Of a stretch of DNA of 64,000 bases, positions 10,967 through 31,285 are shown in pieces; the stretch's first letter is position 1; each line of letters opens with the position of its first letter. The notes under the pieces were generated by a model, which ran no database searches, was not told the DNA's origin, and was given only the letters and a program-made list of their open reading frames with translations. Location of the stretch: positions 28,195 through 92,194 of the forward strand of contig JBFFML010000005.1 in assembly GCA_041554135.1 (NCBI GenBank). Direction: 5' to 3'. This DNA comes from Thermoplasmata archaeon. GTDB lineage: Archaea > Thermoplasmatota > Thermoplasmata > UBA10834. A program made the translations under genes and the position numbers.

Positions 10967-11458
10967 CTACGCGCCAGCTTCGCCTATCATTCTCAGAATG
11001 CAGTCCACGATTGTAGGCACGGCTGCTGCGACGGGAGCCGTGAGCTCCTCGCTCACGTTCACGACGTCATCCGCCTCGACAGCTACGAAGTGGATCGTAT
11101 CTGGCATTTGGCCGGGTACGACGCGTCTCCCCATTGCGAGCGCCGTGGCAATGTTGATGCCGTGAGGGGAGGAGCCGTGTATCGTCCGTTCGAAGTCTCC
11201 TTCCTCGAGAACATACAACTCACCCGGCAGTCCATTGCCTGTGACGATGGCATCGATGATCACGACGGTGTCGTATCCGAGCACCATATCGAGCAGCTCT
11301 AGCCCGCTGGCTGGCAGTTCCTCCACGTCGACACCTGGCAAGCACAGTCCCCTCATCTTCCTCGCCACGTGTATGCCGACACCGTCGTCCGACAGGATCG
11401 GGTTTCCGACGCCAACAATGAGCGTCCGTTTCGCCCCGGCCACTTCGTCTCCTGTCAT
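10967..11458 (-). CDS. [NiFe]-hydrogenase maturation endopeptidase (HycI/HybD type)
   Basis: LIVGVGNPILSDDGVG motif. ATG at 11458 is preferred over the TTG at 11476. Confidence 0.8.
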   Translation of the reverse strand: MTGDEVAGAKRTLIVGVGNPILSDDGVGIHVARKMRGLCLPGVDVEELPASGLELLDMVLGYDTVVIIDAIVTGNGLPGELYVLEEGDFERTIHGSSPHGINIATALAMGRRVVPGQMPDTIHFVAVEADDVVNVSEELTAPVAAAVPTIVDCILRMIGEAGA

Positions 11459-11489
11459 GTAGGACAACCTCTGCAACGCGGTGGAACAT

Positions 11490-11523
11490 TGAAAAACATT
11501 GGCGCGAGGGGCTTCGCCCCTCG
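11490..11523 (-). terminator. Hairpin plus U-tract immediately downstream of mvhA
   Basis: Minus strand reads CGAGGGG-CGAAG-CCCCTCG (11523-11505), followed by GTTTTTC (11497-11491). Confidence 0.3.
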
Positions 11524-11536
11524 TGCTCTCCTGTCT

Positions 11537-13051
11537 TCAGAAGTTTCTCAGCGTCTCCAGTCTCGAACCGTCCGCACGCCTTACGTTGACCTCCAACGCT
11601 GGAGAACCATTCAGGGCGTGCGTGCCGCAGGAGTTGCACGGGTCGTAGCACCGGAACGCCATTTCGACCTTGTTGAGAAGACCCGGAGAGACCTCCCAAT
11701 TCTTGATCAAGGCCTTCGCAGCCTGGACGACGCTCGTGTTTATGGCCGCGTAGTTGTTGGTCGTGGCCACGATCATGTTGATCTTCGTGCACAGCCCGTC
11801 CTTGTCGGAGGCGTAGTGATGTATGAGCGTACCTCTTGGCGCCTCGCAAATGCCAACACCCTCTGTGGGCTCGCCCACCTCTCCACGGATGTCATCGCTC
11901 GTGATGCTCTTGTCGCTCGCCAGTTCGAGCATCCTCTCGGTGGCGTACTGTAGCTCGATCACCCTTGCCCAGTGGAAAGCCAGGGTGTGATGTACAGGCC
12001 CTGTCACTCCGAGGTCCTTCACCGTCTTCGCCAGTACCTCGTATTCCGCCTGAGCGAGTGGGGTGGTGTATCCCTCACAGACGTTGATTCTACCCAGCGG
12101 CCCTACTCTGTAGATGCCGCTCGATGGGCCGTCGGTGAAGCCGTTCCATCCAACCTGCTTCAAGAAGGGCATCTTCATGTATGTCCATGGTTCGACATGC
12201 TCTGCGATAACATCGAGATACTCGTCCGGCTTGTACTTGACGACCTCCTTGCCCGTCTGGTCGACAACACGGATGTCCCCGTCATAGAAGTTCGATTTGT
12301 TGTCCTTGTCCACCATGCCCATGTAGTACGTCTCGAGGTAGTATGCGTCCTGGTTCAGCACAAGGGCCATGTAGTCCTGGTTCGCCAGCACCACGTCGTG
12401 CAGGAGCTTCACGGTGAACTTGGCGAACTCGACGCATGACTTCGCCATCTCCTCCATCTGAGCGCGCTCCTCCTCGCTGATCTGCTTGGATACGCCTCCA
12501 GGAAGGCCGAAACAAGGATGCGTCGCTCTTCCTCCGACGATCTCTTGCACCTTCTGGCCGAATGATCGGTGCTTGATCACCTCTGCTCCTATCTCCACGC
12601 CCACGGCGTCGACTACACCGAGGACATTCCTCTTGTTGGACGGTGCGGACGGGCCCAGCACAAAGTCAGGCGCTGCCAGCGCGTAGAAGTGCGCTATGTG
12701 GCTGTGGGTGTACTGCCCCATGTAGAACAGCTCCCTGAGCTTCTTCGCCGTCTCGGTCGGCTCAGCGTCGAACACCGCGTCGAGAGCCTTTGTTGACGCT
12801 ATGTGGTGCGCGGCCGGACACACTCCGCACAGTCTGTTGGTCAGCACCGGCAACTCCTGCACATGCCTTCCGATGCAGAAGCGTTCGAACCCCCTCAATT
12901 CCGGTACCTGGAGATATGCGTTTGCGACGTTGCCCTGGTCGTTCAGGAATATCTCTATCTTGCCGTGCCCCTCGAGCCTCGTGATCGGGTCGATGGTTAT
13001 CTTCGTCTCCGTCGTCTTCGTCGTCTCGTCGTTTATGATAGGTCCTGACAT
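11537..13051 (-). CDS. mvhA: F420-non-reducing [NiFe] hydrogenase large subunit MvhA
   Basis: RLEGHGKIEI, RLCGVCPAAHH (N-terminal Ni-Fe cysteines), DPCNSCGTH (C-terminal cysteines) and a cleavable tail. Confidence 0.9.
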   Translation of the reverse strand: MSGPIINDETTKTTETKITIDPITRLEGHGKIEIFLNDQGNVANAYLQVPELRGFERFCIGRHVQELPVLTNRLCGVCPAAHHIASTKALDAVFDAEPTETAKKLRELFYMGQYTHSHIAHFYALAAPDFVLGPSAPSNKRNVLGVVDAVGVEIGAEVIKHRSFGQKVQEIVGGRATHPCFGLPGGVSKQISEEERAQMEEMAKSCVEFAKFTVKLLHDVVLANQDYMALVLNQDAYYLETYYMGMVDKDNKSNFYDGDIRVVDQTGKEVVKYKPDEYLDVIAEHVEPWTYMKMPFLKQVGWNGFTDGPSSGIYRVGPLGRINVCEGYTTPLAQAEYEVLAKTVKDLGVTGPVHHTLAFHWARVIELQYATERMLELASDKSITSDDIRGEVGEPTEGVGICEAPRGTLIHHYASDKDGLCTKINMIVATTNNYAAINTSVVQAAKALIKNWEVSPGLLNKVEMAFRCYDPCNSCGTHALNGSPALEVNVRRADGSRLETLRNF

Positions 13052-13057
13052 CTTGGC

Positions 13058-14074
13058 TCACTCCTTCTTCTTGCGCTTCTCGGTCACCGTGCGTCTCAGC
13101 AGCGACTTCGGCAGCGTGAAGGCGTAGAAGGTCCCGAGCGGGTCCTTCACCTGCATCATCAATTCCATTATCTGCTCCTCACTTAACTTTGACTCCGAAT
13201 CCGTGATGTTCAGGAGCGAGGACAGGGCGCTCAGCATGCTCCCGCCGTGGTCCATGACGGCCTTGGTCGGGCCCATGCAGCCTCTGCACGGCATGTTCGC
13301 GTTAGGGCACATCGCGCCGCAGCCCGCCCTCGTCGCGGGCCCGATGCAGATGATCCCCTGGTCGAGCAGGCACTTCTTGGGGTCGGCCTTGATCTCATAC
13401 GACTGGTATATCTTGTCTATCCGCCGTCCCTTCTCCACGCGCTCGCGGGGACACTCGTCGCAGAGCGTCTTGTCGGACGCGATGACCGTGCCCTTGGGCG
13501 GCAGGTCGGCGCCCTCCGTGACGTGCTTGGCCACGGCGTCCACCGCCATGGCTATCAGGTTGACCGTCGGCGGGCAGCCAGGCATGAAGTAATCGACGTC
13601 CACGACCTCGTCCAGCGTCTTGACGCTGTCGTAGAACACCGGTAGCTCGAGCTCGCCCTCCGGCACCGTCGAGATCGGCTGCGGCGTGACGAAGTCGGGG
13701 TTGTCCGTGGAGGCGGTGTTCTTGTAGACGGTCTCGAAGACCTCCTTCCTGTTGGTCACGTTCGCCAGCCCAGGCGTCCCGCCGAAGCAGGCGCACGAGC
13801 CGAAGGCGATCATGATGACCGACTTCTCCCTCAGCACCTTCGCCACATGCTCGTTCTCGCTGTTCCTGATAGCGCCGTTGTAGAACGAGACGGTTATCGA
13901 CTTGTCCGGCATCGCCTCGATCTCATGGAGCTTGCCGTCGAAGCCTATGGGCCAGAACACGACCTCCGCTATGGCGTGCACGTCCAGTATCTTTGCGTCT
14001 ATGTCCAGCAGCGCGACGTCGCAGCCTCCGCAGCCCGCGCCCCAGTACTGTGCGATTTTGATCTTGTCTGCCAT
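13058..14074 (-). CDS. mvhG: F420-non-reducing hydrogenase small subunit MvhG
   Basis: Starts MADKIKIAQYWGAGCGGCDVA, preceded by GGAGGTGAG. No Tat signal. Distal FeS cysteines CPNANMPCRGC. The track ORF's N-terminal 133 aa are out-of-frame overlap with the upstream gene. Confidence 0.85.
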   Translation of the reverse strand: MADKIKIAQYWGAGCGGCDVALLDIDAKILDVHAIAEVVFWPIGFDGKLHEIEAMPDKSITVSFYNGAIRNSENEHVAKVLREKSVIMIAFGSCACFGGTPGLANVTNRKEVFETVYKNTASTDNPDFVTPQPISTVPEGELELPVFYDSVKTLDEVVDVDYFMPGCPPTVNLIAMAVDAVAKHVTEGADLPPKGTVIASDKTLCDECPRERVEKGRRIDKIYQSYEIKADPKKCLLDQGIICIGPATRAGCGAMCPNANMPCRGCMGPTKAVMDHGGSMLSALSSLLNITDSESKLSEEQIMELMMQVKDPLGTFYAFTLPKSLLRRTVTEKRKKKE

Positions 14075-14076
14075 GG

Positions 14077-14469
14077 TCAGCTCACCTCCTCTCCTGAAGA
14101 CTCGGCCCTCATCGGGACCGCCGAGTATTGCGGCGACAGGCCTTTCATGCCGACCTGCTCGATCATCCGCCACCGCTTCAGGGCTATTATGTGCCTCACT
14201 ATCTCCGGCTTCGGTATGCCCGTCAGGTCGTGGAGCTCGTGCACCGTCTTGGGCCCATCCTCCATCTGCAGTATGAGCGCGTTTCTCTCGAGCTCGACCG
14301 AGGCAGCCTTCTGCAGTATGAAGCTGTATCTCGCCTCCGTGATGACCTCTCCGAACACGTTCTCGCCCGTGGTGAGGGCGCCCTTCTTGCCGAGCAGCCA
14401 CCTCACCCTCTCGCCCTCGAGCGTCCTTAGGGCGGCCCTTATCTTGGCGTCCCTGGGAGACATGCTCAC
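14077..14469 (-). CDS. Small winged-helix-like protein coupled to mvhD/mvhG (uncharacterised)
   Basis: GPKTVHELHDLTGIPKPEIVRHIIALKRWRMIEQ resembles a wHTH. Homologous to the C-terminal half of 17965-18786. GTGA overlap with the mvhD stop (or ATG at 14463). Confidence 0.5.
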   Translation of the reverse strand: MSMSPRDAKIRAALRTLEGERVRWLLGKKGALTTGENVFGEVITEARYSFILQKAASVELERNALILQMEDGPKTVHELHDLTGIPKPEIVRHIIALKRWRMIEQVGMKGLSPQYSAVPMRAESSGEEVS

Positions 14470-14930
14470 TCACCCTCCCTCGCTATGGGCGACGGCCCCA
14501 GCTCCTCGATCGTGTCCGTGAACTCGACCATCGTCTTCTGGAACTTCTCCCCCTCGCCCGCGGATATCCACTCGAGCCTCAGCCTGCCAGGGTCGAACCC
14601 GAACTGCTGCAGCAGTATCTTCAGGAGGGCGATCCTCCTCCGCGTCCTGTAGTTGCCCCCTATGTAGTGGCAGTCCGCGGGATGGCATCCCGCCACGAGT
14701 ATGCCGTCGGCGCCCTTCTGGAAAGCCCTCAGGACGAACTCGGGGTCGACCCTCGCGGAGCACATCACCCGGATCACCCTGAAGTGCGGCGGCATCTGCA
14801 ACCGGCTGACGCCCGCGAGGTCCGCGCCTGCGTACGAGCACCAGTTGCAGCAGAACACGATTATCTTCGGCTCGAAGTCCCCGGCGTCAGTCTTCGCCTG
14901 CCCCTCCGCGTTGGGTGCCGCGCTGCTCAC
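14466..14930 (-). CDS. mvhD: MvhD ([2Fe-2S] hydrogenase-Hdr connector), copy 4
   Basis: [22 protein letters not shown] and GCHPADCHY motifs. GTG start in a GTGA overlap with the upstream stop. Confidence 0.9.
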   Translation of the reverse strand: MSSAAPNAEGQAKTDAGDFEPKIIVFCCNWCSYAGADLAGVSRLQMPPHFRVIRVMCSARVDPEFVLRAFQKGADGILVAGCHPADCHYIGGNYRTRRRIALLKILLQQFGFDPGRLRLEWISAGEGEKFQKTMVEFTDTIEELGPSPIAREGE

Positions 14931-17900
14931 TGCCTCACCTCCTGCTTCTCGGCGTCGTCCTCAAGCGCCGCGTCGATCATCGCGACTATCTGCTCGTCCC
15001 TGAAGCCCTTCTGCGTGAGCGCGCCGGACGGGCACGCCCCGACACACGCCCCGCAACCCTTGCACAGGCCCACGTTGACGTCGACGAGCTTCTTCGTCTC
15101 GTCCTTCTGGTCGACTATGATCTCGAGCGCCTTGTACTCGCATGTCGGCACGCATATGCCGCAGCCGTCGCAGAGCGTCTCGTCTAGGCTCGCGACGATG
15201 CCCTCCGCCTCGAGGGTCTTCTTCGAGAGGATGGTCATCGCCCGCGACACCGACGCCAGGCCCTGGCCGATGCACTCGTCCAGGAACTTCGGCCCGTGCG
15301 CCAGCCCGGCGAGGTATACGCCCTCCGTGGCGAAGTCCACCGGCCTCAGCTTCATGTGTGCCTCGAGGAAGAAGCCCTCCTTCGTCAGTGGCACCTTGAG
15401 CATGGGCGCGAGCGCGTCCGCGCCCTCGTACGGCCTCGTGCCGCTCGCGAGGACGAGGTAGTCGGGGGTGATCTCGATGTCCTTGCCCGTGTCCTCGTCC
15501 GTGACGGAGACCACGAGCCTGTCACCCTTCGCCTCGACCTTCGGCTTCACGTCGTCCTCGAACCTGACGAAGGTGACGCCCTTCTCGGCCGCGGTCTTGT
15601 AGTACTCCTCCCTGAAGCCGTAGGTCCTGATGTCCCTGTACAGGATGAAGACCTTCGCGTCCGGGTCCTTCTCCTTGATCTTTATCGCCGCCGTCATCGT
15701 ACCCGTGCAGCATACGCGGGAGCAGTTAGGATGCCCCTCCTCGCGCGAGCCGACGCACTGGATGAACACGTACGAATCGCCCTTGACCTCGCCTTTCTTG
15801 AGCTTCTCCTTGAACTCCAGCAAAGTCAGCACGTTCGGGTTCTCGCCGTAGAGATACTCTCCTTTCGGCTTGTACTCCTGGCCCCCTACCGCGACTATGA
15901 CCGTCCCGTGCTCGAACTTCTCGTCGTTCTCCAGCGTCGTGACGAAGTTGCCCACGTAACCCTCGATGTTCTTCACGCCCACGCCGGCGTGCACCGTGAT
16001 GTTCTCGTTCGACGCGACCTCCTTCGCCAACGATTCCGCGAACTCGAGCGGGTCCTCGCCGGACGGCAGGTAGTGCAGCCTCCTCAGGTTGCCTCCGAGC
16101 TCCTTCTCCTTCTCGACGAGGTGGACCTTGACGCCCTGCTTCGCCAGCTCGAGCGCGGCGACCATCCCGGTCGCCCCGCCGCCGACGACGAGCCCGGCCT
16201 GGTTCACGTCGATCATGAGGTTCTCCAGCGGCTCCAGCAACCTGGACTTCGCGACGGCCATGCGTACGAGGTCCTTCGCCTTCTTCGTCGCGGCGTCGGC
16301 CTCGTGCATGTGTATCCACGAGCACTGGTCGCGTATGTTCGCCATCTCGAACAGGTACGGGTTGAGCCCCGCCTCCTTGATAGTGTTCTGGAACAGCGGC
16401 TCGTGCGTCCTCGGCGTGCAGCTCGCGACGACCACGCGGTTCAGGTCGTGCTCCTTGATCATCTCCTTGATCTTCTCCTGCGTGTCCTGTGAGCAGGTGT
16501 AGAGGTTCTCCTCGGCGTAGACCACGTTCGGCAGCGTCCTCGCGTACTCGGCGACGGACGGCACCTTCACGACGCCGCCGATGTTGATGCCGCAGTGGCA
16601 CACGAACACGCCTATGCGCGGCTCCTGACCGGTGATGTCCATCTCGGCGGGGTACTCCTTCTTCGTCACGAGAGTGTCCCTCGCGGAAGCTATCTGCGTC
16701 GCCGCCTTCGCCGCGGCGCCGCTCGCCTCAGCCACAGTCATCGGTATGTCCTTGGGCGACGAGAACGCGCCGCTGACGAACACGCCAGGCCTCGAGGAGC
16801 TGACTGGGTTCAGCACGTCTGTCTTGCAGAAACCGTCCTTGTTCAGCTGGAACTTCATCACGCGGCTCAACGTCTCGGCGTCCTCCGGGGGCCTGAAACC
16901 CACGGCGAGGACGACCAGGCCGAACTCCTCCTCCTTGGGCTCGCCCTTCTCGACGTACTTCACCACGAGGTTCTTCGTCTCGGGGTCCTCGAACACGGAC
17001 GCGACCCTGGAACGGACGAACTCTATGCCGTACTCGTCCTGTGCCCTGTTGTAGTACTCGTCGAACTCCTTCCCGAACGCCCTCATGTCCATGAAGAATA
17101 TCTTGGGCTGTATGTCCCCGCCATGCTCCTTGGCGATGATCGCCTCCTTGATGGAGTACATGCAGCAGACGCCCGAGCAGTACTCGTTGCCCACCTGCTC
17201 GTCCCTCGAGCCCACGCACTGTATGAACGCTATCTTCGCGGGTATGTCGCCGTCCGACGGGCGCATGACGGTGCCGAAGTACGGCCCCGTCGCGCTCAGC
17301 ATCCTCTCGAACTCGATGCTCGTGACGACGTTCTTGTACACCCCGTATCCGTACTCCCCCTTCAGGCGAGCGTTGAACTCGTCGAAGCCGGGCGACAGGA
17401 TTATCGACCCGACCTTGATCTCGAGGACCTTCTCCTTCTGGTCGTAGTCCACCGCGTTCGCCTTGCACTCCTCCGAGCATATGCCGCAGCCTATGCACTT
17501 CTCCGGGTCTATGGAGTAGACGAGCGGCACGGCCTGCGGGTACCTGACGTATATCGCCTTCCTGACCTTGGTGCCCTCGTTGTACTCGTCGGTCACCTCG
17601 ATCGGGCACTTCTGTGCGCATGACCCGCAACCTGTGCACTTGGTCGGGTCCACCCTGAACGCCCTCTGCTTCACGGTCACTGTGAAGTTGCCCTCCTGCC
17701 CGTCGACTATCGCTATGTCCGCGTTGGTGATCAGGTCTATGTTGTGATGCCTGCCCGTGGCCACGAGCTTGGGCGCCATGATGCACATCGCACAATCGTT
17801 CGTCGGGAAGGTCTTGTCCAGCTGGGCCATCGTGCCGCCTATGCTGGGCTGCTTCTCCACCAGGTATACCTTGAATCCGGAATCGGCCAGGTCAAGGGCG

Positions 17901-17968
17901 GACTGGAGGCCCGATATGCCGCCACCCACGACCATGACCGCGCCGATCTTCTCGCCTGCCGCCATCAC
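14927..17968 (-). CDS. Double HdrA-like flavoprotein (1013 aa; two thioredoxin-reductase-like FAD modules in one chain)
   Basis: N-half: [28 protein letters not shown], inserted 2x CxxCxxCxxxC(P), CVGSRD. C-half: [13 protein letters not shown]-domain, VVGGGATGMVAALELA, CVGSRE, and a C-terminal 2x Cys4 ferredoxin. Confidence 0.85.
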   Translation of the reverse strand: MMAAGEKIGAVMVVGGGISGLQSALDLADSGFKVYLVEKQPSIGGTMAQLDKTFPTNDCAMCIMAPKLVATGRHHNIDLITNADIAIVDGQEGNFTVTVKQRAFRVDPTKCTGCGSCAQKCPIEVTDEYNEGTKVRKAIYVRYPQAVPLVYSIDPEKCIGCGICSEECKANAVDYDQKEKVLEIKVGSIILSPGFDEFNARLKGEYGYGVYKNVVTSIEFERMLSATGPYFGTVMRPSDGDIPAKIAFIQCVGSRDEQVGNEYCSGVCCMYSIKEAIIAKEHGGDIQPKIFFMDMRAFGKEFDEYYNRAQDEYGIEFVRSRVASVFEDPETKNLVVKYVEKGEPKEEEFGLVVLAVGFRPPEDAETLSRVMKFQLNKDGFCKTDVLNPVSSSRPGVFVSGAFSSPKDIPMTVAEASGAAAKAATQIASARDTLVTKKEYPAEMDITGQEPRIGVFVCHCGINIGGVVKVPSVAEYARTLPNVVYAEENLYTCSQDTQEKIKEMIKEHDLNRVVVASCTPRTHEPLFQNTIKEAGLNPYLFEMANIRDQCSWIHMHEADAATKKAKDLVRMAVAKSRLLEPLENLMIDVNQAGLVVGGGATGMVAALELAKQGVKVHLVEKEKELGGNLRRLHYLPSGEDPLEFAESLAKEVASNENITVHAGVGVKNIEGYVGNFVTTLENDEKFEHGTVIVAVGGQEYKPKGEYLYGENPNVLTLLEFKEKLKKGEVKGDSYVFIQCVGSREEGHPNCSRVCCTGTMTAAIKIKEKDPDAKVFILYRDIRTYGFREEYYKTAAEKGVTFVRFEDDVKPKVEAKGDRLVVSVTDEDTGKDIEITPDYLVLASGTRPYEGADALAPMLKVPLTKEGFFLEAHMKLRPVDFATEGVYLAGLAHGPKFLDECIGQGLASVSRAMTILSKKTLEAEGIVASLDETLCDGCGICVPTCEYKALEIIVDQKDETKKLVDVNVGLCKGCGACVGACPSGALTQKGFRDEQIVAMIDAALEDDAEKQEVRQ

Positions 17969-22165: not shown

Positions 22166-22588
22166 TCAGGTCACGGCCTTGCCCTTCTTCAGCACCTGCT
22201 TGACGTCCTTGTCCTTCTTGATCTCGGTCACCTTGACCTTGAACGGCACCTTCTTCCTGGCCTGCAGCACCTCGCTCGAGAACCTCTGGCAGTTGGGGTA
22301 TGTGCACGGCGAGCACTTCTTGTCCTTGCACGCCAGCTCGATCAGCACGAGCCTGTCGCGTGTGTCGTCGGGCTTAACCACCGGCTTCTTGACCTCGAAC
22401 ATCTTGGTCATCTTGGTCTCGAAGGGCACCTTCTTGGGCTTCATCTCCCTGACGAACCTCTGGCAGTTAGGGTACGTGCACGGCGAGCACTTCTGGTCCT
22501 TGCATGACAGCTCGATCAGCAGGAACCTCTGGTCGGCGTCGTCCTTCTTCTTCTTTTTCTCCTCGCTATCCACTTTCTTCGGTGACAT
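22166..22588 (-). CDS. Lys-rich mini-protein with two tandem Cys4 repeats (uncharacterised)
   Basis: Two ~58-aa repeats, each (F/L)(L/V)LIEL(S/A)CKD(Q/K)KCSPCTYPNCQRF...KKVPF. It lies 21 nt downstream of the MvhD-HdrCB fusion on the same strand. ATG start. Confidence 0.55.
   Translation of the reverse strand: MSPKKVDSEEKKKKKDDADQRFLLIELSCKDQKCSPCTYPNCQRFVREMKPKKVPFETKMTKMFEVKKPVVKPDDTRDRLVLIELACKDKKCSPCTYPNCQRFSSEVLQARKKVPFKVKVTEIKKDKDVKQVLKKGKAVT
22280..22521. repeat. Intragenic direct repeat: two 68-nt copies (22280-22347 and 22454-22521), period 174 nt
   Basis: By-eye alignment shows roughly 90 percent identity between the copies, while the flanking codons have diverged. Confidence 0.8.
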
Positions 22589-27200: not shown

Positions 27201-27240
27201 CGACGATTAGCACCGCGCCCACTTTGCCGTTCTCAGCCAT
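24205..27240 (-). CDS. Double HdrA-like flavoprotein (1011 aa), paralogue of 14927-17968
   Basis: Same half-domain order: [16 protein letters not shown] + [12 protein letters not shown] + inserted ferredoxin, then [12 protein letters not shown] + [16 protein letters not shown] + C-terminal [11 protein letters not shown] / [11 protein letters not shown]. Confidence 0.85.
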
Positions 27241-27241: not shown

Positions 27242-27691
27242 CTACGCGCCCCCTTCGGAGATCGGCCCGAGCTTCTCCAACTCGGAGACCATTTGCCTGA
27301 TCACTTCCGCGAACTTCTGTCCCTCGGACCCCGCGATCCACTCCACCCTGAACCGCTGCGGCTCTATGCCGGCCTCCTCTAGGAACTCGGAGAGGAACTC
27401 CCCTCTCAACGCCGTCTTCTCGTTCCCGTTGATGTAGTGGCAGTCGGATGGGTGGCATCCGGCGATGATCACGCCGTCGGCGCCCAGGGCGAACGCCTTC
27501 AGGACGAAGGCTGGGTCGACCCTCCCCGAGCACATGACCCTGACTATCTTCACGTTCGTGGGGTACTGCAGCCTGGTCGTGCCCGCGAGGTCCGCGCCTG
27601 CGTACGAGCACCAGTTGCAGCAGAACGCCACGATCCTTGGCTCATATGTCTCCTCTGTCTCCTGAGCGACCGCTTCCCCCTGCAGGCTCAC
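27242..27691 (-). CDS. mvhD: MvhD, copy 1 (follows hdrB)
   Basis: [22 protein letters not shown] and GCHPSDCHY. GTG at 27691 in a GTGA overlap with the hdrB stop, with AAGGGGGG upstream. The long track ORF extension is rejected. Confidence 0.85.
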   Translation of the reverse strand: MSLQGEAVAQETEETYEPRIVAFCCNWCSYAGADLAGTTRLQYPTNVKIVRVMCSGRVDPAFVLKAFALGADGVIIAGCHPSDCHYINGNEKTALRGEFLSEFLEEAGIEPQRFRVEWIAGSEGQKFAEVIRQMVSELEKLGPISEGGA

Positions 27692-28605
27692 ACCCCCCTT
27701 AGCTTCCTGAGGAAGGAGTGCGCCGACACGTGATGCGTGTCGAACCCGAGCGAGATGGGGTCGATGCCCATCGACAGCGCCTGGAACTGGGATATGTGCA
27801 TCACCGGGATGCCGTCCTTCGTGAACGACTTCTGGGCGTTGTCGAACTGCAGGAGACAGAATGGGCAGCCGGTGACTATGCAGTCCGCCTCGGCCGCAGC
27901 GATGTTCCTGCATTTGTCCTCGGTGAGCGAGTTGGCGAGCTCGACCACGTGCGACCTCACGCCACCTCCCGCGCCGCAGCAGTCCAGCTTGTCCTCGTAA
28001 TCGACGCTCGTCGCGCCGCAGGCCTCTATGATCTCGTCGATGTGGACGGGGTCGTTGGGGTCGTCGATGGTCTGGTTCTCCGTCGGCCTGAGGTAATGGC
28101 AACCATAGTGGACGGCCGCGCGTATGTTCTTTAGCGGCCTCTTCGTGCGCTCCCGTATCGCGTCGAGGCCTATGTCGCTCGTCATCATCTCGACGTAGTG
28201 ACGGACCTTCACGGGCCCCATTATGCGCCTTCTGCCCTCCGTCCTGCGCGGTATCCCCGTGTACTTCTTCCCTATCTGGGACAGCATACGGTTCACCTTC
28301 CCCAGGCTCTTGGGGTCCTCCAGGTACTCCGTCGCCTTGAGCAGGGATGTGAGGCATCCGTTGCACACGGTCAGTATCTCCCGCCGCTCGGGCTGGGCCA
28401 GCGTGAGGTTCCTGGCGGCGAGCACGAGCCACGTGTTCTTGTCCGATGAGTAGAATATGCCTGGTACCGGGCAGCAGGAAAATTCCGGGATGTCGATGAC
28501 GTCGAGGTCGAACCCGTCCTTCCCGCATACCCAACGCACGGCGTACTCGACGCCCGGGTATCTGTTTGGTATTATGCAACCGAAGAAGTAGGCGTAGCTG
28601 GTCAA
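27688..28605 (-). CDS. hdrB: Heterodisulfide reductase subunit B
   Basis: Two C..CC(P/G)..CxxC repeats (FGC..SCCPVPG..CNGC and YGC..DCCGAGGG..GCPFC). TTG start in a TTGA overlap with hdrC. Confidence 0.9.
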   Translation of the reverse strand: MTSYAYFFGCIIPNRYPGVEYAVRWVCGKDGFDLDVIDIPEFSCCPVPGIFYSSDKNTWLVLAARNLTLAQPERREILTVCNGCLTSLLKATEYLEDPKSLGKVNRMLSQIGKKYTGIPRRTEGRRRIMGPVKVRHYVEMMTSDIGLDAIRERTKRPLKNIRAAVHYGCHYLRPTENQTIDDPNDPVHIDEIIEACGATSVDYEDKLDCCGAGGGVRSHVVELANSLTEDKCRNIAAAEADCIVTGCPFCLLQFDNAQKSFTKDGIPVMHISQFQALSMGIDPISLGFDTHHVSAHSFLRKLRGV

Positions 28606-29186
28606 GCCTTCACCTCCTCCTCTATGCCTATGAGCTTGTCGTAGCCTACCGCGTGAACGAGGACGTTTATCTCCCTTATCACGCGCGCGTAGTCCTTTCC
28701 CCGAGACGGGACGTCATCGAGCTCCAGCTCCTTCCGTATCTTCTCGATCTCGGGATCGGGCTTGACGCTCTGGCCGTACTTCACCAGGTTGGTCGCGGCG
28801 ACCTTGATGAACGGCGGTATCACGCCCTCCCTGATGGCGATGTGCCTCAGGGCGATCATCACCTCGGCCGGGTTGATGTCAGCGGGGCAGTGCTCGTAGC
28901 ACCTGTAGCATGTCGCGCAGACCCAGCGCGTGCCCAGCGTGAACTTCTTCAGCCCGAACTGGCAGAACTTGATTATGCTCCTGGTCTTGTAGTCGATCTT
29001 CAGGCTTATGGGACAGACGCCCGTGCAGTTGCCGCATTGCAGGCACGTCATGACGTCCTTCCCGCCGTACTTGACTATCTCCTTCGCGAAACCGGGCTCC
29101 AGCTGCGACTCGTCTATGACCTTGTCCTCCACGAGTTTCTCGCTCAGGCCGCTGAGGAATGTCTTCTCGACCTCTCCCATCGTCAC
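28602..29186 (-). CDS. hdrC: Heterodisulfide reductase subunit C
   Basis: CLQCGNCTGVCP and CATCYRCYEHCP ferredoxin motifs. GTG 29186 (GTGA overlap) or ATG 29180 after GGAGGTG. Confidence 0.9.
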   Translation of the reverse strand: MTMGEVEKTFLSGLSEKLVEDKVIDESQLEPGFAKEIVKYGGKDVMTCLQCGNCTGVCPISLKIDYKTRSIIKFCQFGLKKFTLGTRWVCATCYRCYEHCPADINPAEVMIALRHIAIREGVIPPFIKVAATNLVKYGQSVKPDPEIEKIRKELELDDVPSRGKDYARVIREINVLVHAVGYDKLIGIEEEVKA

Positions 29187-31285
29187 ACCTCCTCTCCGGC
29201 CTTCCCGGCCTTCGCCTTGTCACCCTTGCTCGCGCCGCCCCCGTTCTCCGACAGGGCGGTGACTATCTCGCTGGTTATCTGGTCATCCGTGAACTGTTTC
29301 GCCGTGATCGCCTTCTGCGGACATGCGGCGACGCATGTACCGCACCCGTGGCAGAGCGCCTCAGTGACCCTCGCCTTGGTACCCTTCTCCGTCTCCACGA
29401 TCTCGGGGGCGCCGTACGGGCACATCTCCACGCACAGACCGCAACCCACGCACAGGTCCTCGTCGACCGACGCCGTCAGCGGTTCGATCCTGACCTTCTT
29501 GCCCGCCATGACGGCCGCCGCAGACGCGGCTGCGCCCTTGGCCTGCGCCACGGAGTCTGGTATGTCCTTCGGTGACTGTGCGCACCCCGCGAGGAATATG
29601 CCGTCCATGGCGGTGTCGACCGGCCTCAGCTTCGGGTGCGCCTCCATGAAGAAACCGTCCGGGCTGAGGGACAGCGACAGTATCTTGCCGATCCTCTTGC
29701 TGCCTTCCGAGGGCAGGAGCCCCGTCGAGAGCACTACGAGGTCGAACTCCCTCTCGGTGATCTTGTTCAGCAATGTCTCCTCCGCCCGTATGGTGACCGC
29801 CTTGGTCTCAGGGTTCTCGGTCAGCTTCGCCGGGCGCCCTCGGATGAACTCGACTGCGTATTCCTCCCTGACGCGGTGATACAGCTCTTCGAAGCCCTTC
29901 CCGAAGGCCCTGATGTCGTTGTAGTAGACCGCTATGTCGGTGTCCGGCTCGTGCTCCTTGATGATCTGCGTGTTCTTGATCGCGTACATGCAACACACGC
30001 GTGAGCAGTAGTCGTTCCCTAGCTTCTTGTTCCTCGAGCCGACGCATTGTATGAACGCGATCCTCTTCGGCGTCTCGCCGTCAGAAGGTCGTATCAGGTG
30101 GCCTCCTGTCGGCCCCGAGGCGTTGAGGAGGCGTTCCAGCTCCAGCCCTGTTATGACGTTCTCGTATTCCCAGTACTTGTACACGCCACGCTTCTTGGGC
30201 ACGTATATGTCGTACCCCGTGGCGACGATTATCGTCCCCACCTTGATGTCCACGACCTCGTCCTTCATCTCGTGGTCTATCGCTTCGTTCGCGCACGCCT
30301 TCACGCAGGCCTTGCACTTCCCGGTCTTGAAGTACAGACAGTGCTCCTTGTCGATAGTGTACTTGAGCGGGACCGCCTGTGGGAACGGGACGTAGATCGC
30401 CTTCCTCTTGCCGAAACCCATGTCGAAGGCGTTGTCCACCTTCACCGGGCAGGCGTCGGCGCACACGCCGCAGCCGACGCACTTGTCCTCGATGACGAAG
30501 CGCGCCTTCCTCCTGACCTTCACGTCGAAGTTGCCTATGAAGCCCTTGACCTCCTCGACCTCGGAGTAAGACAGGAGCGTTATGTTCGGATGCCTGGCCA
30601 GCTCGACCATCTTCGGCGCGAGGATGCATATCGCGCAGTCGCCCGTCGGGAAGGTCTTGTCCAGCTGGGCCATCCGCCCGCCGATGCTGGGCTCCGACTC
30701 GACGACGTACACCTTGAACCCCATCTGTGCCATGTCCAGGGCCGCCTGGATCCCAGATACGCCTCCGCCTATGACCAGAGAGGTCTGCTCCACTGGCACC
30801 TCGCGTGCCTCCAGCGGCTCGAGCCTCGACGCCTTGGCTATCCCCATCTTGACGAGCCCGATCGCCTTCTCCGTCGCCGCCTCCTTCTGCTGGGCGTGGA
30901 CCCACGAGCACTGCTCCCTCAGGTTCACCATCTGCAGAAGATACGGGTTCAGCCCCGCCTCCTTTATGCAGTTCCTGAATGTCGGCTCGTGCATCCTCGG
31001 GGAGCACGCGGCCACGACGACCCTCTCGACGCCGTTCTCCTTTATGGCTTTGATTATCTCGTCCTGGCCCAGGTCGGAGCACGTGTACTTGTTCTCCTTG
31101 GCCACGACCACGCCCGGCACCTTCTCCGCGGCCTCCCTCACCTTGGCCGTGTCGACGGTCCCCGCGATGTTGCTCCCGCAATGACAGATGAAAACGCCTA
31201 TCTTCGGAGCAGAAGTCGGACTGTCCACGGGTCTCTCCGGCGCCTCCTTCGCGAGGTTCTCTTCGAGTGGTTCGGACGAATTCAT
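29183..31285 (-). CDS. hdrA: Heterodisulfide reductase subunit A (complete, canonical domain set)
   Basis: IGVFICHCGSNIAG N-domain, VIGGGVSGIQAALDMA, DKTFPTGDCAIC, inserted CVGCGVCADACP / CKACVKAC, CVGSRN, and C-terminal CVGCGLCVEMCP / CHGCGTCVAACP. GGAGGGGAA precedes the ATG. Confidence 0.9.
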   Translation of the reverse strand: MNSSEPLEENLAKEAPERPVDSPTSAPKIGVFICHCGSNIAGTVDTAKVREAAEKVPGVVVAKENKYTCSDLGQDEIIKAIKENGVERVVVAACSPRMHEPTFRNCIKEAGLNPYLLQMVNLREQCSWVHAQQKEAATEKAIGLVKMGIAKASRLEPLEAREVPVEQTSLVIGGGVSGIQAALDMAQMGFKVYVVESEPSIGGRMAQLDKTFPTGDCAICILAPKMVELARHPNITLLSYSEVEEVKGFIGNFDVKVRRKARFVIEDKCVGCGVCADACPVKVDNAFDMGFGKRKAIYVPFPQAVPLKYTIDKEHCLYFKTGKCKACVKACANEAIDHEMKDEVVDIKVGTIIVATGYDIYVPKKRGVYKYWEYENVITGLELERLLNASGPTGGHLIRPSDGETPKRIAFIQCVGSRNKKLGNDYCSRVCCMYAIKNTQIIKEHEPDTDIAVYYNDIRAFGKGFEELYHRVREEYAVEFIRGRPAKLTENPETKAVTIRAEETLLNKITEREFDLVVLSTGLLPSEGSKRIGKILSLSLSPDGFFMEAHPKLRPVDTAMDGIFLAGCAQSPKDIPDSVAQAKGAAASAAAVMAGKKVRIEPLTASVDEDLCVGCGLCVEMCPYGAPEIVETEKGTKARVTEALCHGCGTCVAACPQKAITAKQFTDDQITSEIVTALSENGGGASKGDKAKAGKAGEEV

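What the first reader, a model, noticed from the sequence alone, without database searches (positions are those of the whole stretch)
10967..31285. Hdr/Mvh super-operon: seven HdrA-type flavin modules and four MvhD domains around a single [NiFe] hydrogenase
Seen: 16 co-directional minus-strand genes run from hdrA (31285) to the maturation protease (10967). Only three gaps exceed 10 nt (21 nt at 22589-22609, 208 nt at 21958-22165, 60-78 nt at 11459-11536). GxGxxG FAD motifs in HdrA-type proteins total 7: one in 29183-31285, two in 24205-27240, one each in 20659-21957 and 18790-20658, and two in 14927-17968. The MvhD signature [11 protein letters not shown] (preceded by FC/LC) occurs four times (27242-27691, 22610-24208, 17965-18786, 14466-14930). 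CCG-type catalytic domains occur in two proteins (hdrB and the fusion at 22610-24208). mvhG and mvhA occur once. Established: in the characterised MvhAGD-HdrABC complex, one MvhD wires the hydrogenase to one HdrA. Inference: the locus encodes either four alternative electron-bifurcating modules sharing one hydrogenase, or a multi-module megacomplex. I do not recognise this arrangement as described, but I cannot search.
Basis: partly seen in the sequence, partly recalled or inferred. Interest (0 to 1): 0.8.

Follow-up and report, generated by a model that had tools for sequence, protein, structure and literature searches.

The report
Four Hdr modules, one hydrogenase
An uncultured, apparently non-methanogenic Thermoplasmata archaeon carries a conserved 20-kb gene array that joins four different electron-splitting (HdrA-type) units, each with its own MvhD adaptor, to one hydrogen-oxidising enzyme; each part is of a known kind, but I found no description of this combination.

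Summary
Sixteen tightly packed minus-strand genes (31285 to 10967) encode seven HdrA-type FAD domains, four MvhD domains, two CCG reductases and one MvhG/MvhA [NiFe] hydrogenase with its protease.

It is not an assembly artefact. The same order recurs in dozens of independent Thermoplasmata MAGs and metagenome contigs, including Ca. Gimiplasmatales/UBA10834 and closed chromosomes.

The seven flavin domains reduce to four functional units. One is a canonical HdrA. Three are complementary "alpha+beta" pairs, two fused and one split. Alpha keeps Cys194/197, the inserted ferredoxin domain and the bifurcation residues E356/K409. Beta supplies the N-terminal cluster domain and the MvhD-facing C-terminal ferredoxin domain. 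This matches one-to-one with the four MvhD proteins. It is the architecture now resolved by cryo-EM in BamE/BamF/BamD of class II benzoyl-CoA reductase.

Two units carry CCG reductases. The other two are paralogous and instead carry a winged-helix domain, fused to MvhD in one and free in the other.

A conserved consensus promoter motif lies inside the 208-nt gap, so the array is probably at least two transcription units.

That all units share the hydrogenase, and what their acceptors are, remain inferences.

Verdict: a new variant of a known kind, of moderate interest.

The parts
31419..31434 (-). P1: BRE/TATA-like promoter motif AACGAAAGCTATATTA, about 135 nt upstream of the hdrA ATG
   Evidence: One of only two exact matches to CGAAANNNWTAWWW in the 64 kb (0.05 expected). 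A motif occurs within 260 nt upstream of hdrA in 27 of 29 related loci.
29183..31285 (-). Module 1: canonical HdrA (700 aa) with all domains
   Evidence: 59% identical to M. wolfeii HdrA over 643 aa. All cluster-ligand Cys, Cys194/197 and E356/K409 are kept.
28602..29186 (-). Module 1: HdrC (194 aa, two [4Fe-4S] motifs)
   Evidence: Pfam Fer4 dicluster families. The gene overlaps its neighbours by 4 nt.
27688..28605 (-). Module 1: HdrB (305 aa, two CCG domains)
   Evidence: Pfam CCG with two stretches. E = 1.7e-83 to 5ODC_B, with the Cys of both CCG motifs aligned. TIGR03288 scores 319.7 bits, just below the 345 cut-off.
27242..27691 (-). Module 1: MvhD (149 aa)
   Evidence: Pfam FlpD, E = 9.5e-55, full length.
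24205..27240 (-). Module 2: fused alpha-beta HdrA (1011 aa). The alpha half is about aa 1-439 and the beta half about aa 440-1011.
   Evidence: Domain and Cys complementarity. The beta half lacks E356/K409 (G/A), and this holds in 36 of 36 homologues. Homologues of about 1011 aa occur in more than 100 clusters.
22610..24208 (-). Module 2: MvhD fused to an HdrC-like di-cluster and an HdrB/HdrD-like double-CCG domain (532 aa)
   Evidence: Pfam FlpD + Fer4 + CCG x2. The best NCBIfam matches for the C-terminal part are TfrB, LdhH and GlpC, all below cut-off. The two parts are separate genes in L026, L028, L130, L140 and L147.
22166..22588 (-). cys140: small basic protein with two repeats, ELSCKDxKCxPCTYPNCQRF (8 invariant Cys); putative di-metal or Fe-S protein
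   Evidence: Invariant Cys columns. Only a weak PF04060/RnfB-type hit. Orphan family: 276 clusters, with every source name that is given pointing to Thermoplasmata, and only 28 representatives in 1.84 billion.
22109..22151 (-). GC-rich hairpin directly after the cys140 stop codon
   Evidence: Read from the sequence. Related loci have non-homologous hairpin-forming sequence at the same place. No T-run follows, so termination is uncertain.
22081..22096 (-). P2: BRE/TATA-like promoter motif AACGAAACAGATAATA inside the 208-nt gap, about 125 nt upstream of the A432 ATG
   Evidence: The second of the two exact matches in the window. The block is conserved in an alignment of about 30 related intergenic regions, followed by a conserved TACGG. 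In related loci, 44 of 52 motif hits lie upstream of hdrA or A432.
20659..21957 (-). Module 3: alpha-type HdrA (432 aa)
   Evidence: No N-terminal domain and no C-terminal ferredoxin domain. It keeps Cys194/197, the inserted ferredoxin domain, the HA4 motif and E356/K409.
18790..20658 (-). Module 3: beta-type HdrA (622 aa)
   Evidence: [quoted passage not shown] Cys194/197 and the inserted ferredoxin domain are absent. E356/K409 are retained, in 42 of 42 homologues.
17965..18786 (-). Module 3: MvhD fused to a C-terminal winged-helix domain X (273 aa)
   Evidence: Pfam FlpD at aa 23-145. The C-terminal 125 aa are homologous to the free X protein (28% identity, E = 8e-10).
14927..17968 (-). Module 4: fused alpha-beta HdrA (1013 aa)
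   Evidence: Same complementarity as the 1011-aa protein. Cys59/Cys62 and Lys274 lie in the alpha half; Thr759 sits at the Lys position of the beta half.
14466..14930 (-). Module 4: MvhD (154 aa)
   Evidence: Pfam FlpD, E = 9.4e-56. E = 2e-54 to 5ODC_D.
14077..14469 (-). Module 4: free X protein (130 aa), an ArsR/SmtB-like winged helix with no Cys and pI 9.05
   Evidence: Weak Pfam HTH_5/HTH_IclR hits. AF2 model with pLDDT 78. Foldseek's best matches are SmtB, BigR, HlyU and SqrR. The gene is conserved between mvhD and mvhG in dozens of loci. The family contains only free proteins or proteins fused after MvhD.
13058..14074 (-). MvhG, [NiFe] hydrogenase small subunit (338 aa)
   Evidence: Pfam Oxidored_q6. 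Best NCBIfam match is VhuG. The start codon was corrected.
11537..13051 (-). MvhA, [NiFe] hydrogenase large subunit (504 aa)
   Evidence: Pfam NiFeSe_Hases. Best NCBIfam match is VhuA. RLCGVCPAAHH and DPCNSCGTH motifs, with a C-terminal extension, are visible in the translation.
11492..11523 (-). Hairpin (CGAGGGGCGAAGCCCCTCG) followed by T5 after the mvhA stop codon; terminator-like
   Evidence: Read from the sequence.
10967..11476 (-). HycI-type hydrogenase maturation protease
   Evidence: Pfam HycI. Conserved after mvhA in related loci.
31693..36326 (-). Flanking hydrogenase maturation genes hypD, hypF and hypB
   Evidence: Pfam HypD, HypF domains and CobW/HypB.
9912..10958 (+). Flanking AIRS-family gene at the conserved position convergent to hycI (here called hypE)
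   Evidence: Pfam AIRS/AIRS_C; the name hypE is inferred from these domains and from the hydrogenase-maturation context. The position is conserved in related loci.

Best explanation
The locus is a conserved, lineage-specific array in Ca. Gimiplasmatales/UBA10834 and neighbouring Thermoplasmata. It places four distinct HdrA-type flavin-based electron-bifurcating (or confurcating) units, each with a dedicated MvhD [2Fe-2S] adaptor, next to the only electron-input enzyme encoded there: one Mvh-type [NiFe] hydrogenase with its protease, flanked by hyp maturation genes.

Unit 1 is a classical HdrABC plus MvhD.

Units 2-4 use an asymmetric HdrA 'pseudo-dimer'.
- The alpha part carries the bifurcating FAD (E356/K409), the Cys194/197 pair, the inserted ferredoxin domain (the low-potential exit) and the HA4 cluster (the high-potential exit).
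- In the two fused proteins the beta flavin has lost the bifurcation residues and is probably structural.

Outputs differ between units.
- Units 1 and 2 end in CCG-type reductases: HdrBC in unit 1, and an HdrD/BamD-like domain fused to MvhD in unit 2.
- Units 3 and 4 are paralogues that encode no CCG partner. Instead a winged-helix domain is attached to MvhD (unit 3) or encoded next to it (unit 4). By analogy with BamF, this is most likely a docking element for a partner module.

Proposed flow: H2 -> MvhA -> MvhG -> the MvhD of whichever unit is docked -> beta C-terminal ferredoxin domain -> alpha FAD. There the electron pair splits, towards ferredoxin (possibly the small Cys-rich protein) and towards a unit-specific higher-potential acceptor.

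Shown: gene content, domain and ligand complementarity, conservation, and variable module number. Inferred: physical docking of all four MvhD proteins on one hydrogenase, the direction of electron flow, the acceptors, and the two-promoter transcription.
For: - Domain calls.
- Complementary loss and retention of every HdrA cluster ligand against M. wolfeii HdrA.
- The residue pattern Cys194, Cys197, E356, K409 ('CCEK') is kept in every alpha-type and canonical sequence scored. The beta halves of the fused proteins lack these residues.
- The count is one-to-one: four units and four MvhD.
- Units 3 and 4 are paralogous down to the X domain.
- The array is conserved across more than 40 species genomes and dozens of metagenome contigs.
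- Module number varies around the same mvhGA: five modules in COMBO-56-21-like loci, and fewer in CP070736. This argues for separable plug-in units.
- Single-module equivalents exist in bacteria: WOR-3 has A2x-mvhD-mvhG-mvhA, and a deltaproteobacterium has hdrCB-A2x-mvhD.
- Cryo-EM of BamDEF shows that a fused HdrA dimer has one bifurcating N-terminal FAD (Lys280, Cys59-Cys62) and one structural FAD. It also shows an MvhD adaptor that is more than 100 aa longer than other MvhD adaptors and has a winged helix that docks the input module, and an HdrD-like BamD. The 1013-aa protein here has Cys59/Cys62, Lys274 and Thr759.
- The published heterodimer reasoning for tandem HdrA.
- hyp genes flank the array.
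Against: - There is no expression or protein data for this lineage.
- MvhD homologues act as adaptors without any hydrogenase in BamF, HdrA2 and MetFV-Hdr. Four MvhD proteins therefore do not prove four hydrogenase partners.
- Units 3 and 4 have no encoded high-potential acceptor, so their reaction is unknown.
- The beta subunit of unit 3 keeps E356/K409, so a second active flavin cannot be excluded there.
- The free X protein is basic and ArsR-like. It could simply be a transcription factor.
- The clade is reported to lack mcr, so the substrate of a very canonical-looking HdrB is unexplained.
- The internal promoter means that stoichiometric co-expression of all units is not guaranteed.
Confidence: 0.55

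Rival explanations
1. All four units and the hydrogenase assemble into one multi-module super-assembly. Several bifurcation sites would then be electronically coupled, for example with the output of one unit feeding another.
For: - Most junctions are tight and translationally coupled.
- Hdr-based super-assemblies are real: multi-megadalton Hdr-Vhu-Fwd and (Mvh-Hdr)2-Fmd4 complexes are listed, and BCRII couples two bifurcation modules.
- The alpha and beta parts could in principle cross-pair between units.
Against: - Module number varies from about three to five among relatives around the same hydrogenase genes.
- Each alpha-beta pair is self-complementary.
- A conserved internal promoter splits the array.
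- Single modules work as stand-alone clusters in bacteria.
- No scaffold or polyferredoxin subunit is encoded.
Confidence: 0.15
2. Only the unit or units next to mvhGA are hydrogenase-coupled: unit 4 and perhaps unit 3, which share a transcription unit with the hydrogenase. In the upstream units MvhD is a generic electron adaptor to partners encoded elsewhere, such as MetFV, ETF, FrhB/FdhB-like or NAD(P)H modules. The array would then be a collection of different redox couplers rather than one hydrogenase hub.
For: - MvhD-type adaptors work without a hydrogenase in BamF, HdrA2 and MetFV-HdrABC-MvhD.
- The bacterial hdrCB-A2x-mvhD cluster has no adjacent hydrogenase, whereas WOR-3 has A2x-mvhD-mvhGA.
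- P2 separates units 1-2 from units 3-4 and the hydrogenase.
- Sister genomes carry GltD/NAD(P)H-type insertions in the unit-3 alpha subunit, and in 1471-1493-aa tandem HdrA proteins. This shows that other donors or acceptors are used in this family.
Against: - Unit 1 is the textbook hydrogenase partner (HdrABC + MvhD), yet it lies in the upstream part of the array.
- No other input module is encoded anywhere in the 20 kb.
- The array and mvhGA stay linked in nearly all relatives.
Confidence: 0.25
3. The winged-helix protein X and the MvhD::X fusion are regulators rather than enzyme subunits. They would form a [2Fe-2S]-based redox sensor coupled to an ArsR-like DNA-binding domain that controls the two shared promoters.
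For: - X has an ArsR/SmtB-like fold, and its closest structures include the redox- or persulfide-sensing repressors BigR, SqrR, HlyU and YodB.
- The free X protein is basic, with pI 9.05.
- Two promoter-like motifs with the same layout lie in front of hdrA and A432.
Against: - The fused X domain is acidic, with pI 5.15.
- The MvhD part of the fusion is as conserved as the other MvhD proteins and sits exactly where each unit has its MvhD.
- X occupies the position that the HdrD-like domain holds in the unit-2 fusion.
- BamF shows that a winged helix on an MvhD adaptor serves as a protein-protein interface.
- The shared motif is a plain BRE/TATA consensus, not an obvious operator.
Confidence: 0.1
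4. The repeated genes are an assembly or binning chimera, or decaying redundant paralogues.
For: The window comes from a metagenome-assembled contig, and paralogue-rich regions can mis-assemble.
Against: - The same order is found in many independent assemblies, including closed chromosomes CP070732, CP070748 and OY970070.
- The paralogues are only 46-63% identical.
- All ORFs are intact, with conserved ligands.
Confidence: 0.02

Closest known systems
MvhAGD-HdrABC of Methanothermobacter wolfeii and related methanogens (PDB 5ODC and relatives)
   Same: Unit 1 plus mvhGA reproduces the full subunit set. HdrA is 59% identical with all ligands kept. HdrB matches at E = 1.7e-83. All four MvhD proteins match at about 1e-54 or better.
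   Different: - The host clade is reported to lack mcr, so CoM-S-S-CoB as the substrate is unproven.
- hdrACB-mvhD is separated from mvhGA by about 13 kb holding three further HdrA units.
- HdrB falls just below the NCBIfam equivalog cut-off.
BamDEF module of class II benzoyl-CoA reductase, Geobacter metallireducens (cryo-EM preprint 10.64898/2026.04.10.717634)
   Same: - A fused HdrA dimer with the bifurcating FAD in the N-terminal TrxR domain (Cys59-Cys62, Lys280) and a non-bifurcating second FAD.
- An MvhD adaptor extended by a winged helix.
- An HdrBC-fusion/HdrD-like CCG subunit.

The window's 1013- and 1011-aa proteins, the MvhD::X fusion and the MvhD::HdrD-like fusion mirror these features.
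   Different: - No BamB/C tungsten module and no BamGHI input module is present; the only input enzyme encoded is a [NiFe] hydrogenase.
- MvhD is fused to the CCG subunit in unit 2.
- One pair is split into two genes.
- Homology of X to the BamF winged helix could not be tested, because the coordinates and sequence are not in the PDB copy held here.
Tandem or fused heterodimeric HdrA of ANME archaea and methanogens ('type II HdrA'; Chadwick 2022, PMC9012536; PMC12054007)
   Same: Two TrxR-like domains, with complementary presence of the N-terminal domain versus Cys197 and of the ferredoxin domains. This is interpreted as an obligate heterodimer.
   Different: - The order of the halves is reversed. 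In ANME HdrA3/4 the copy with the N-terminal domain comes first; here the copy bearing Cys197 comes first.
- Partner genes there are FdhB/FrhB and a molybdopterin protein, not Mvh.
- That study reports the K409/E356 pair conserved in 75% of type II sequences, suggesting both domains could bifurcate. Here the fused beta halves lack these residues.
MetFV-HdrABC-MvhD methylene-THF reductase of Moorella thermoacetica and Sporomusa ovata
   Same: An alpha-first double HdrA whose C-terminal half lacks the inserted ferredoxin domain, with a separate MvhD and HdrBC. Only one flavin carries the bifurcation signature. The Moorella HdrA has a GltD insertion, like the 1471-1493-aa relatives and the 901-aa unit-3 alpha in sister loci.
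   Different: - No metF or metV was found among the window ORFs scanned.
- A hydrogenase is encoded here instead.
- The window's own proteins have no GltD insertion.
HdrA2B2C2 of Methanosarcina acetivorans (HdrA-MvhD fusion)
   Same: It shows that MvhD can be covalently built into an Hdr unit and can work without a hydrogenase.
   Different: There MvhD is fused to HdrA. Here it is free, fused to an HdrD-like domain, or fused to a winged helix.

Membership tests
MvhAGD-HdrABC (H2:heterodisulfide/ferredoxin oxidoreductase) | [NiFe] large subunit with N-terminal RxCGxC and C-terminal DPCxxC motifs, plus a small subunit of the Mvh/Vhu type | tested here: met
   Pfam NiFeSe_Hases and Oxidored_q6. 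The best NCBIfam models are VhuA and VhuG, although below their equivalog cut-offs. The motifs were read in the translation.
MvhAGD-HdrABC (H2:heterodisulfide/ferredoxin oxidoreductase) | MvhD [2Fe-2S] subunit (FlpD fold) | tested here: met
   Four full-length FlpD matches, E from 6e-53 to 4e-56. E of about 1e-54 or better to 5ODC_D.
MvhAGD-HdrABC (H2:heterodisulfide/ferredoxin oxidoreductase) | HdrA with the N-terminal domain, Cys197, the inserted and C-terminal ferredoxin domains, HA4, and E356/K409 | tested here: met
   Met by the 700-aa HdrA only.
MvhAGD-HdrABC (H2:heterodisulfide/ferredoxin oxidoreductase) | HdrB with two complete CCG motifs, and HdrC with two [4Fe-4S] motifs | tested here: met
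   TIGR03288 scores 319.7 against a cut-off of 345, so equivalog status is formally missed.
MvhAGD-HdrABC (H2:heterodisulfide/ferredoxin oxidoreductase) | The substrate is CoM-S-S-CoB in an organism that makes it (Mcr, and CoM/CoB biosynthesis) | not testable with these tools
   Only 64 kb of this genome is available. The literature reports no mcr in UBA10834 MAGs.
MvhAGD-HdrABC (H2:heterodisulfide/ferredoxin oxidoreductase) | Physical complex of the hydrogenase with Hdr, and H2-dependent bifurcation | not testable with these tools
   This needs biochemistry.
Heterodimeric / fused (type II, BamE-like) HdrA | Two TrxR-like FAD domains, in one polypeptide or in adjacent genes | tested here: met
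   The 1011- and 1013-aa fusions and the 432 + 622 aa pair.
Heterodimeric / fused (type II, BamE-like) HdrA | Complementarity: one half has Cys197 but no N-terminal domain, and the other half the reverse | tested here: met
   The pattern is conserved across 34-62 homologues per type.
Heterodimeric / fused (type II, BamE-like) HdrA | Order of the halves as in ANME HdrA3/4 (the half with the N-terminal domain comes first) | tested here: not met
   The order here is reversed (alpha-first), as in BamE and Sporomusa/Moorella HdrA.
Heterodimeric / fused (type II, BamE-like) HdrA | One bifurcating FAD (Lys/Glu pair) in the N-terminal TrxR domain and a non-bifurcating second FAD (BamE) | tested here: met
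   Met for both fused proteins. Not met for the split pair, whose beta subunit keeps E356/K409.
Class II benzoyl-CoA reductase (BamB-I) | BamB/C tungsten-AOR catalytic module and BamGHI (HydABC-like) input module | tested here: not met
   No such domains were found in the 16 genes or among the neighbouring ORFs scanned.
ArsR/SmtB transcription factors (for X) | Winged-helix fold of the ArsR type | tested here: inconclusive
   Pfam HTH_5 scores 22.7 bits, at the cut-off. NCBIfam scores 15.8 against a cut-off of 55. Foldseek E is about 2e-3 with TM 0.4-0.6.
ArsR/SmtB transcription factors (for X) | DNA binding and a sensory metal or thiol site | not testable with these tools

The most novel reading that the evidence does not exclude
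A single cytoplasmic [NiFe] hydrogenase acts as a hub. Dedicated MvhD adaptors plug it onto three to five different HdrA bifurcation units. At least two of these units work without any CCG or disulfide chemistry and use a clade-specific winged-helix docking domain, and perhaps a new 8-Cys mini-protein, to reach unknown acceptors. This would be a switchboard that lets a non-methanogenic archaeon couple H2 to several different endergonic and exergonic redox pairs.
Probability: 0.2. Interest if true: 0.8.

Novelty: new variant of a known kind. Interest (0 to 1): 0.55.

Why it matters
HdrA-type electron bifurcation is best understood in methanogens, where the acceptor is CoM-S-S-CoB. The role of the many HdrA paralogues in non-methanogens is an open question. 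One 2025 survey states that no biochemistry has been done on the fused 'type II' HdrA.

This array gives a compact, widely conserved natural test set. One organism and one hydrogenase serve four differently wired HdrA units: a canonical one, an alpha-beta pair with an HdrD-like reductase, and two alpha-beta pairs with a winged helix. Sister genomes add or remove modules, or swap in NAD(P)H-type (GltD) insertions.

It makes several questions testable:
- how MvhD adaptors select partners;
- whether alpha-beta HdrA has one or two active flavins;
- what Hdr does in a lineage without methanogenesis. This lineage (UBA10834) is reported as abundant at anoxic depths of floodplain sediments.

It also defines two small clade-specific protein families, cys140 and X, that are tied to bifurcation modules.

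Tried and rejected
- An exact-sequence look-up of the window's 1011-aa protein in the contig index found nothing. Its provenance is known only as an NCBI contig of 95,324 bp.
- ARAGORN found no tRNAs. Rfam found two intron-containing tRNAs, and this was used as evidence for an archaeal origin.
- The published Zinke 2021 and Hu 2021 (Gimiplasmatales) papers are not held. Only the Zinke preprint could be read, so a description of the array in Hu et al. cannot be excluded.
- The cys140 model is unusable (pLDDT 39), so no fold search was run on it.
- The full HMMER scan for cys140 found no link to any larger family.
- The PDB copy holds no fused HdrA and no BamE or BamF. The winged helix of X could therefore not be compared with that of BamF.
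- The bacterial sigma-70 promoter/terminator scanner was called with too large a range and was then dropped as unsuitable for an archaeon. Promoter inference rests instead on the conserved BRE/TATA-like motif.
- NAD(P)H binding by the beta flavin domain was considered and set aside. The position of the TrxR NADPH loop is occupied by the HA4 Cys motif in all seven domains.
- Assembly chimera was rejected on synteny and on paralogue divergence.

Full report
**1. Observation.**

ORF listing and translation give sixteen minus-strand genes between 31285 and 10967. Their junctions are overlaps of 4 nt or gaps of 0-6 nt. The exceptions are 21 nt (22589-22609), 208 nt (21958-22165) and 60-78 nt before the protease gene. 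Almost all starts are preceded by a GGAGG-type ribosome-binding site.

Pfam confirms each assignment:

| Coordinates | Product | Size |
|---|---|---|
| 29183-31285 | HdrA | 700 aa |
| 28602-29186 | HdrC | 194 aa |
| 27688-28605 | HdrB, two CCG domains | 305 aa |
| 27242-27691 | MvhD | 149 aa |
| 24205-27240 | double HdrA | 1011 aa |
| 22610-24208 | MvhD + di-cluster + two CCG domains | 532 aa |
| 22166-22588 | Cys-rich protein with no family | 140 aa |
| 20659-21957 | HdrA-like | 432 aa |
| 18790-20658 | HdrA-like | 622 aa |
| 17965-18786 | MvhD with a C-terminal extension | 273 aa |
| 14927-17968 | second double HdrA | 1013 aa |
| 14466-14930 | MvhD | 154 aa |
| 14077-14469 | HTH protein | 130 aa |
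| 13058-14074 | MvhG | 338 aa |
| 11537-13051 | MvhA | 504 aa |
| 10967-11476 | HycI-type protease | 169 aa |

The only correction is the mvhG start, which is the ATG at 14074.

**2. Source and context.**

Two intron-containing tRNAs were detected by Rfam but not by bacterial-mode ARAGORN, which points to an archaeon.

The 1011-aa protein is 100% identical to an NCBI protein from a 95-kb contig. It has more than 100 homologue clusters of about 1011 aa at 63-87% identity, and those that carry a source name are labelled Thermoplasmata, Thermoplasmatota, Methanobacteriota, Euryarchaeota or 'Methanomassiliicoccales' MAGs.

A scan of one genome per GTDB species returned 43 loci from genomes labelled as archaeal. 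These include isolates UBA10834, UBA9653 and RBG_19FT_COMBO_56_21. Those are the MAGs on which the order UBA10834 (Ca. Gimiplasmatales) was defined. That order is described as non-methanogenic. It lacks mcr but has hdrABCD, mvh, CODH/ACS and MttB-family genes. In the papers I could read, Hdr/Mvh are listed as present without any description of the gene arrangement.

The array is flanked by hypD, hypF and hypB upstream, and by a convergent AIRS-family gene (taken here as hypE) downstream.

**3. Not an artefact; conserved and modular.**

I mapped all ORFs of the fetched loci onto the 16 proteins. This shows the same order from hdrA to the second double HdrA in the genome loci.

A second scan seeded with MvhG shows the distal half in dozens of metagenome contigs at 60-94% identity. 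That half runs from the Cys-rich protein through to mvhA, hycI, the convergent hypE and mobA. Closed MAG chromosomes (CP070732, CP070748, OY970070) carry the array.

The paralogues are old: 46-63% identity between like parts.

Module content varies among relatives.
- COMBO-56-21-like loci have a fifth cassette, an extra MvhD::X and double HdrA.
- Some loci have MvhD and the HdrD-like protein as separate genes.
- CP070736 lacks several genes, and its array is not followed by mvhGA.
- One group replaces the 432-aa protein with a 901-aa version that carries a GltD/NfnB-like NAD(P)H module inside the inserted ferredoxin domain. That group mostly lacks the Cys-rich gene.

Single-cassette equivalents occur in bacteria:
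- WOR-3: double HdrA-mvhD-mvhG-mvhA.
- A deltaproteobacterium: hdrC-hdrB-double HdrA-mvhD.
- A Desulfobacteraceae MAG: a split pair.

**4. Seven flavin domains are four units.**

I aligned the seven HdrA-type domains to M. wolfeii HdrA. Its sequence came from the PDB alignment. The result is a clean complementary pattern.

| Feature | 'Alpha' domains | 'Beta' domains |
|---|---|---|
| Members | N-halves of the 1011- and 1013-aa proteins; the 432-aa protein | C-halves of the 1011- and 1013-aa proteins; the 622-aa protein |
| N-terminal cluster domain (Cys11, 13, 46, 71, 103) | absent | present |
| Cys194/Cys197 | present | absent |
| Inserted ferredoxin domain (8 Cys) | present | absent |
| HA4 motif (4 Cys) | present | present |
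| C-terminal ferredoxin domain (8 Cys) | absent | present |

In the M. wolfeii complex, Cys197 of one HdrA completes the N-terminal cluster of its partner. [quoted passage not shown] Low-potential electrons leave through that N-terminal cluster and the inserted ferredoxin domain. Each alpha-beta pair therefore rebuilds exactly one complete path.

The residues proposed to mark a bifurcating flavin, E356 and K409, behave as follows.
- The canonical HdrA and all alpha domains keep them. Every alpha-type and canonical sequence scored carries Cys194, Cys197, E356 and K409.
- The beta halves of the fused proteins do not. The 1011-type has G/A in most of 36 homologues and none keeps the pair; the 1013-type mostly has K/T.
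- The split beta (622 aa) keeps them in 42 of 42 homologues.

The result is four units for four MvhD proteins.

**5. Comparison with characterised systems.**

The heterodimer idea was proposed for tandem and fused HdrA of ANME archaea, but there the half with the N-terminal domain comes first. A 2025 survey calls such proteins 'type II HdrA' and notes that no biochemistry has been done on them.

The alpha-first order seen here is that of Sporomusa and Moorella HdrA in the MetFV-HdrABC-MvhD system and of BamE in class II benzoyl-CoA reductase. A 2026 cryo-EM preprint on that reductase shows three things.
- BamE is a fused HdrA dimer. Its N-terminal FAD is the bifurcating one (Lys280, Cys59-Cys62), and its second FAD is non-bifurcating and structural (Gln768).
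- BamF is an MvhD adaptor that is more than 100 aa longer than other MvhD adaptors and includes a winged helix-turn-helix. That motif docks the input module.
- BamD is an HdrBC-fusion/HdrD-like subunit that hands electrons to an ETF, not to a disulfide.

The window's 1013-aa protein has Cys59/Cys62, Lys274 and Thr759.

The PDB copy available here holds only canonical HdrA and MvhD. A direct comparison with BamE or BamF was therefore not possible.

**6. The accessory parts.**

*The X domain.* The C-terminal 125 aa of the 273-aa MvhD protein are homologous to the free 130-aa protein encoded between mvhD and mvhG (28% identity, E = 8e-10). Units 3 and 4 are therefore paralogous sets: alpha, beta, MvhD and X.

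X homologues were found only as free proteins of about 120-130 aa or fused after MvhD, and every source name given points to Thermoplasmata or related archaeal MAGs. An AlphaFold model (pLDDT 78) resembles ArsR/SmtB winged-helix repressors only weakly (E about 2e-3). The free form is basic and has no Cys; the fused form is acidic.

X is attached to MvhD exactly where unit 2 has its HdrD-like domain. BamF shows a winged helix acting as a docking surface. For these two reasons I favour a structural adaptor role, with a regulator role as a rival.

*The Cys-rich protein.* The 140-aa protein has two invariant repeats, ELSCKDxKCxPCTYPNCQRF. It has only a faint resemblance to the RnfB/AcsC N-terminal Fe-S motif. 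It belongs to a tiny orphan family of 28 representatives among 1.84 billion. Its model was unusable. A role as a dedicated small electron carrier is a guess.

**7. Transcription.**

The 208-nt gap contains AACGAAACAGATAATA (22081-22096). This is a BRE/TATA-like block conserved in about 30 related intergenic regions and followed by a conserved TACGG.

The only other exact match to CGAAANNNWTAWWW in the 64 kb is AACGAAAGCTATATTA (31419-31434), upstream of hdrA (0.05 expected by chance). In 1.56 Mb of related loci, 44 of 52 same-strand matches lie within 300 nt upstream of hdrA or of the 432-aa gene.

A GC-rich hairpin follows the Cys-rich gene. A hairpin plus T5 follows mvhA.

The array is therefore probably two transcription units, hdrA to cys140 and alpha432 to mvhA, with hycI read through or transcribed separately. 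This is an inference from motifs only.

**8. Mechanism, rivals and verdict.**

The best-supported reading is a set of four separable bifurcation units that can each be wired by their own MvhD to the one encoded hydrogenase. Two have CCG-type exits and two have unknown exits (confidence about 0.55).

The rivals are:
- a single super-assembly, disfavoured by the variable module number and the self-complementary pairs;
- hydrogenase coupling of the adjacent unit or units only, which is plausible because MvhD adaptors often work without a hydrogenase;
- a regulatory role for X;
- an artefact, which is rejected.

The parts are all of known kinds. The concatenated, conserved, variable-copy array in a non-methanogenic lineage, the reversed (BamE-like) fusion order in archaea, the MvhD::HdrD-like and MvhD::winged-helix fusions, and the two orphan families are not described in anything I could search. 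I rate it a new variant of a known kind, with an interest score of about 0.55.

Noticed in passing
window 3275-3378 (-) and 7625-7730 (+): Two tRNA genes of 104 and 106 nt were found by Rfam but missed by ARAGORN in bacterial mode. They presumably contain introns, which fits an archaeal genome.
   Followed up: partly
window 40208-41629 (+) and 46301-47767 (+): Two full-length MttB-superfamily genes read through as uninterrupted ORFs. The one that was scored (40208-41629) falls below the TIGR02369 cut-off (348 vs 525 bits). They are probably non-pyrrolysine MttB homologues, such as glycine-betaine-type methyltransferases, as reported for this clade.
   Followed up: partly
window 916-2412, 4399-5613, 47800-49146 (all -); 49813-54816 (-): There are three clostripain-family (C11) peptidase genes. 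There is also a peptide ABC transporter with a 966-aa substrate-binding protein carrying PKD, PEGA and CarboxypepD_reg domains. This suggests a peptide-scavenging lifestyle.
   Followed up: no
window about 48000-58000: GC content drops to 0.53-0.57, against about 0.60 elsewhere. The low-GC stretch covers the peptide transporter, MFS and ABC-2 genes and may be a horizontally acquired segment.
   Followed up: no
L002 14787-17489 (also L003-L006, L017, L027, L030, L036): In these sister genomes the unit-3 alpha subunit is 901 aa long. It carries a GltD/NfnB-like insertion (Fer4_20 + NAD(P)-binding Pyr_redox_2) inside the inserted ferredoxin domain, like 'type III HdrA' or Moorella HdrA. These loci lack the Cys-rich gene, whereas L132 has both.
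   Followed up: partly
P0111-P0116; L038 10001-14404: Tandem HdrA proteins of 1471-1493 aa carrying a PF14691 (GltD-type) domain occur in related Thermoplasmata MAGs (for example RBG_13_61_15). This is architecturally like the 1487-aa Moorella thermoacetica HdrA.
   Followed up: no
L008, L029, L081, L091, L104, L105, L127, L143: COMBO-56-21-like loci carry a fifth cassette between unit 3 and unit 4. It consists of an extra MvhD::X (about 50-58% identity) and a double HdrA (about 59% identity). That gives nine flavin domains and five MvhD around one mvhGA.
   Followed up: partly
L021 (CP070736.1) 9950-15763: In this closed MAG the array is shortened. The MvhD::HdrD-like gene, cys140, alpha432 and beta622 are missing. 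It ends in a 660-aa HdrA-like ORF followed by unrelated opposite-strand genes. An X homologue (P0238) lies on the same chromosome, at a position that was not determined.
   Followed up: partly
window 18790-20658 (-), about aa 335-395 of the 622-aa protein: A roughly 60-aa acidic and Arg-rich low-complexity insertion (…EIMERRRRRRGRDRGD…) lies directly after the HA4 Cys motif. It is absent from M. wolfeii HdrA and from the fused beta halves.
   Followed up: no
L140 (OMKS01000107.1), downstream of hycI: A second, distant [NiFe] hydrogenase pair (27-28% identity to MvhG and MvhA) lies next to the array in one relative. Some genomes in the clade therefore encode more than one soluble hydrogenase nearby.
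   Followed up: no
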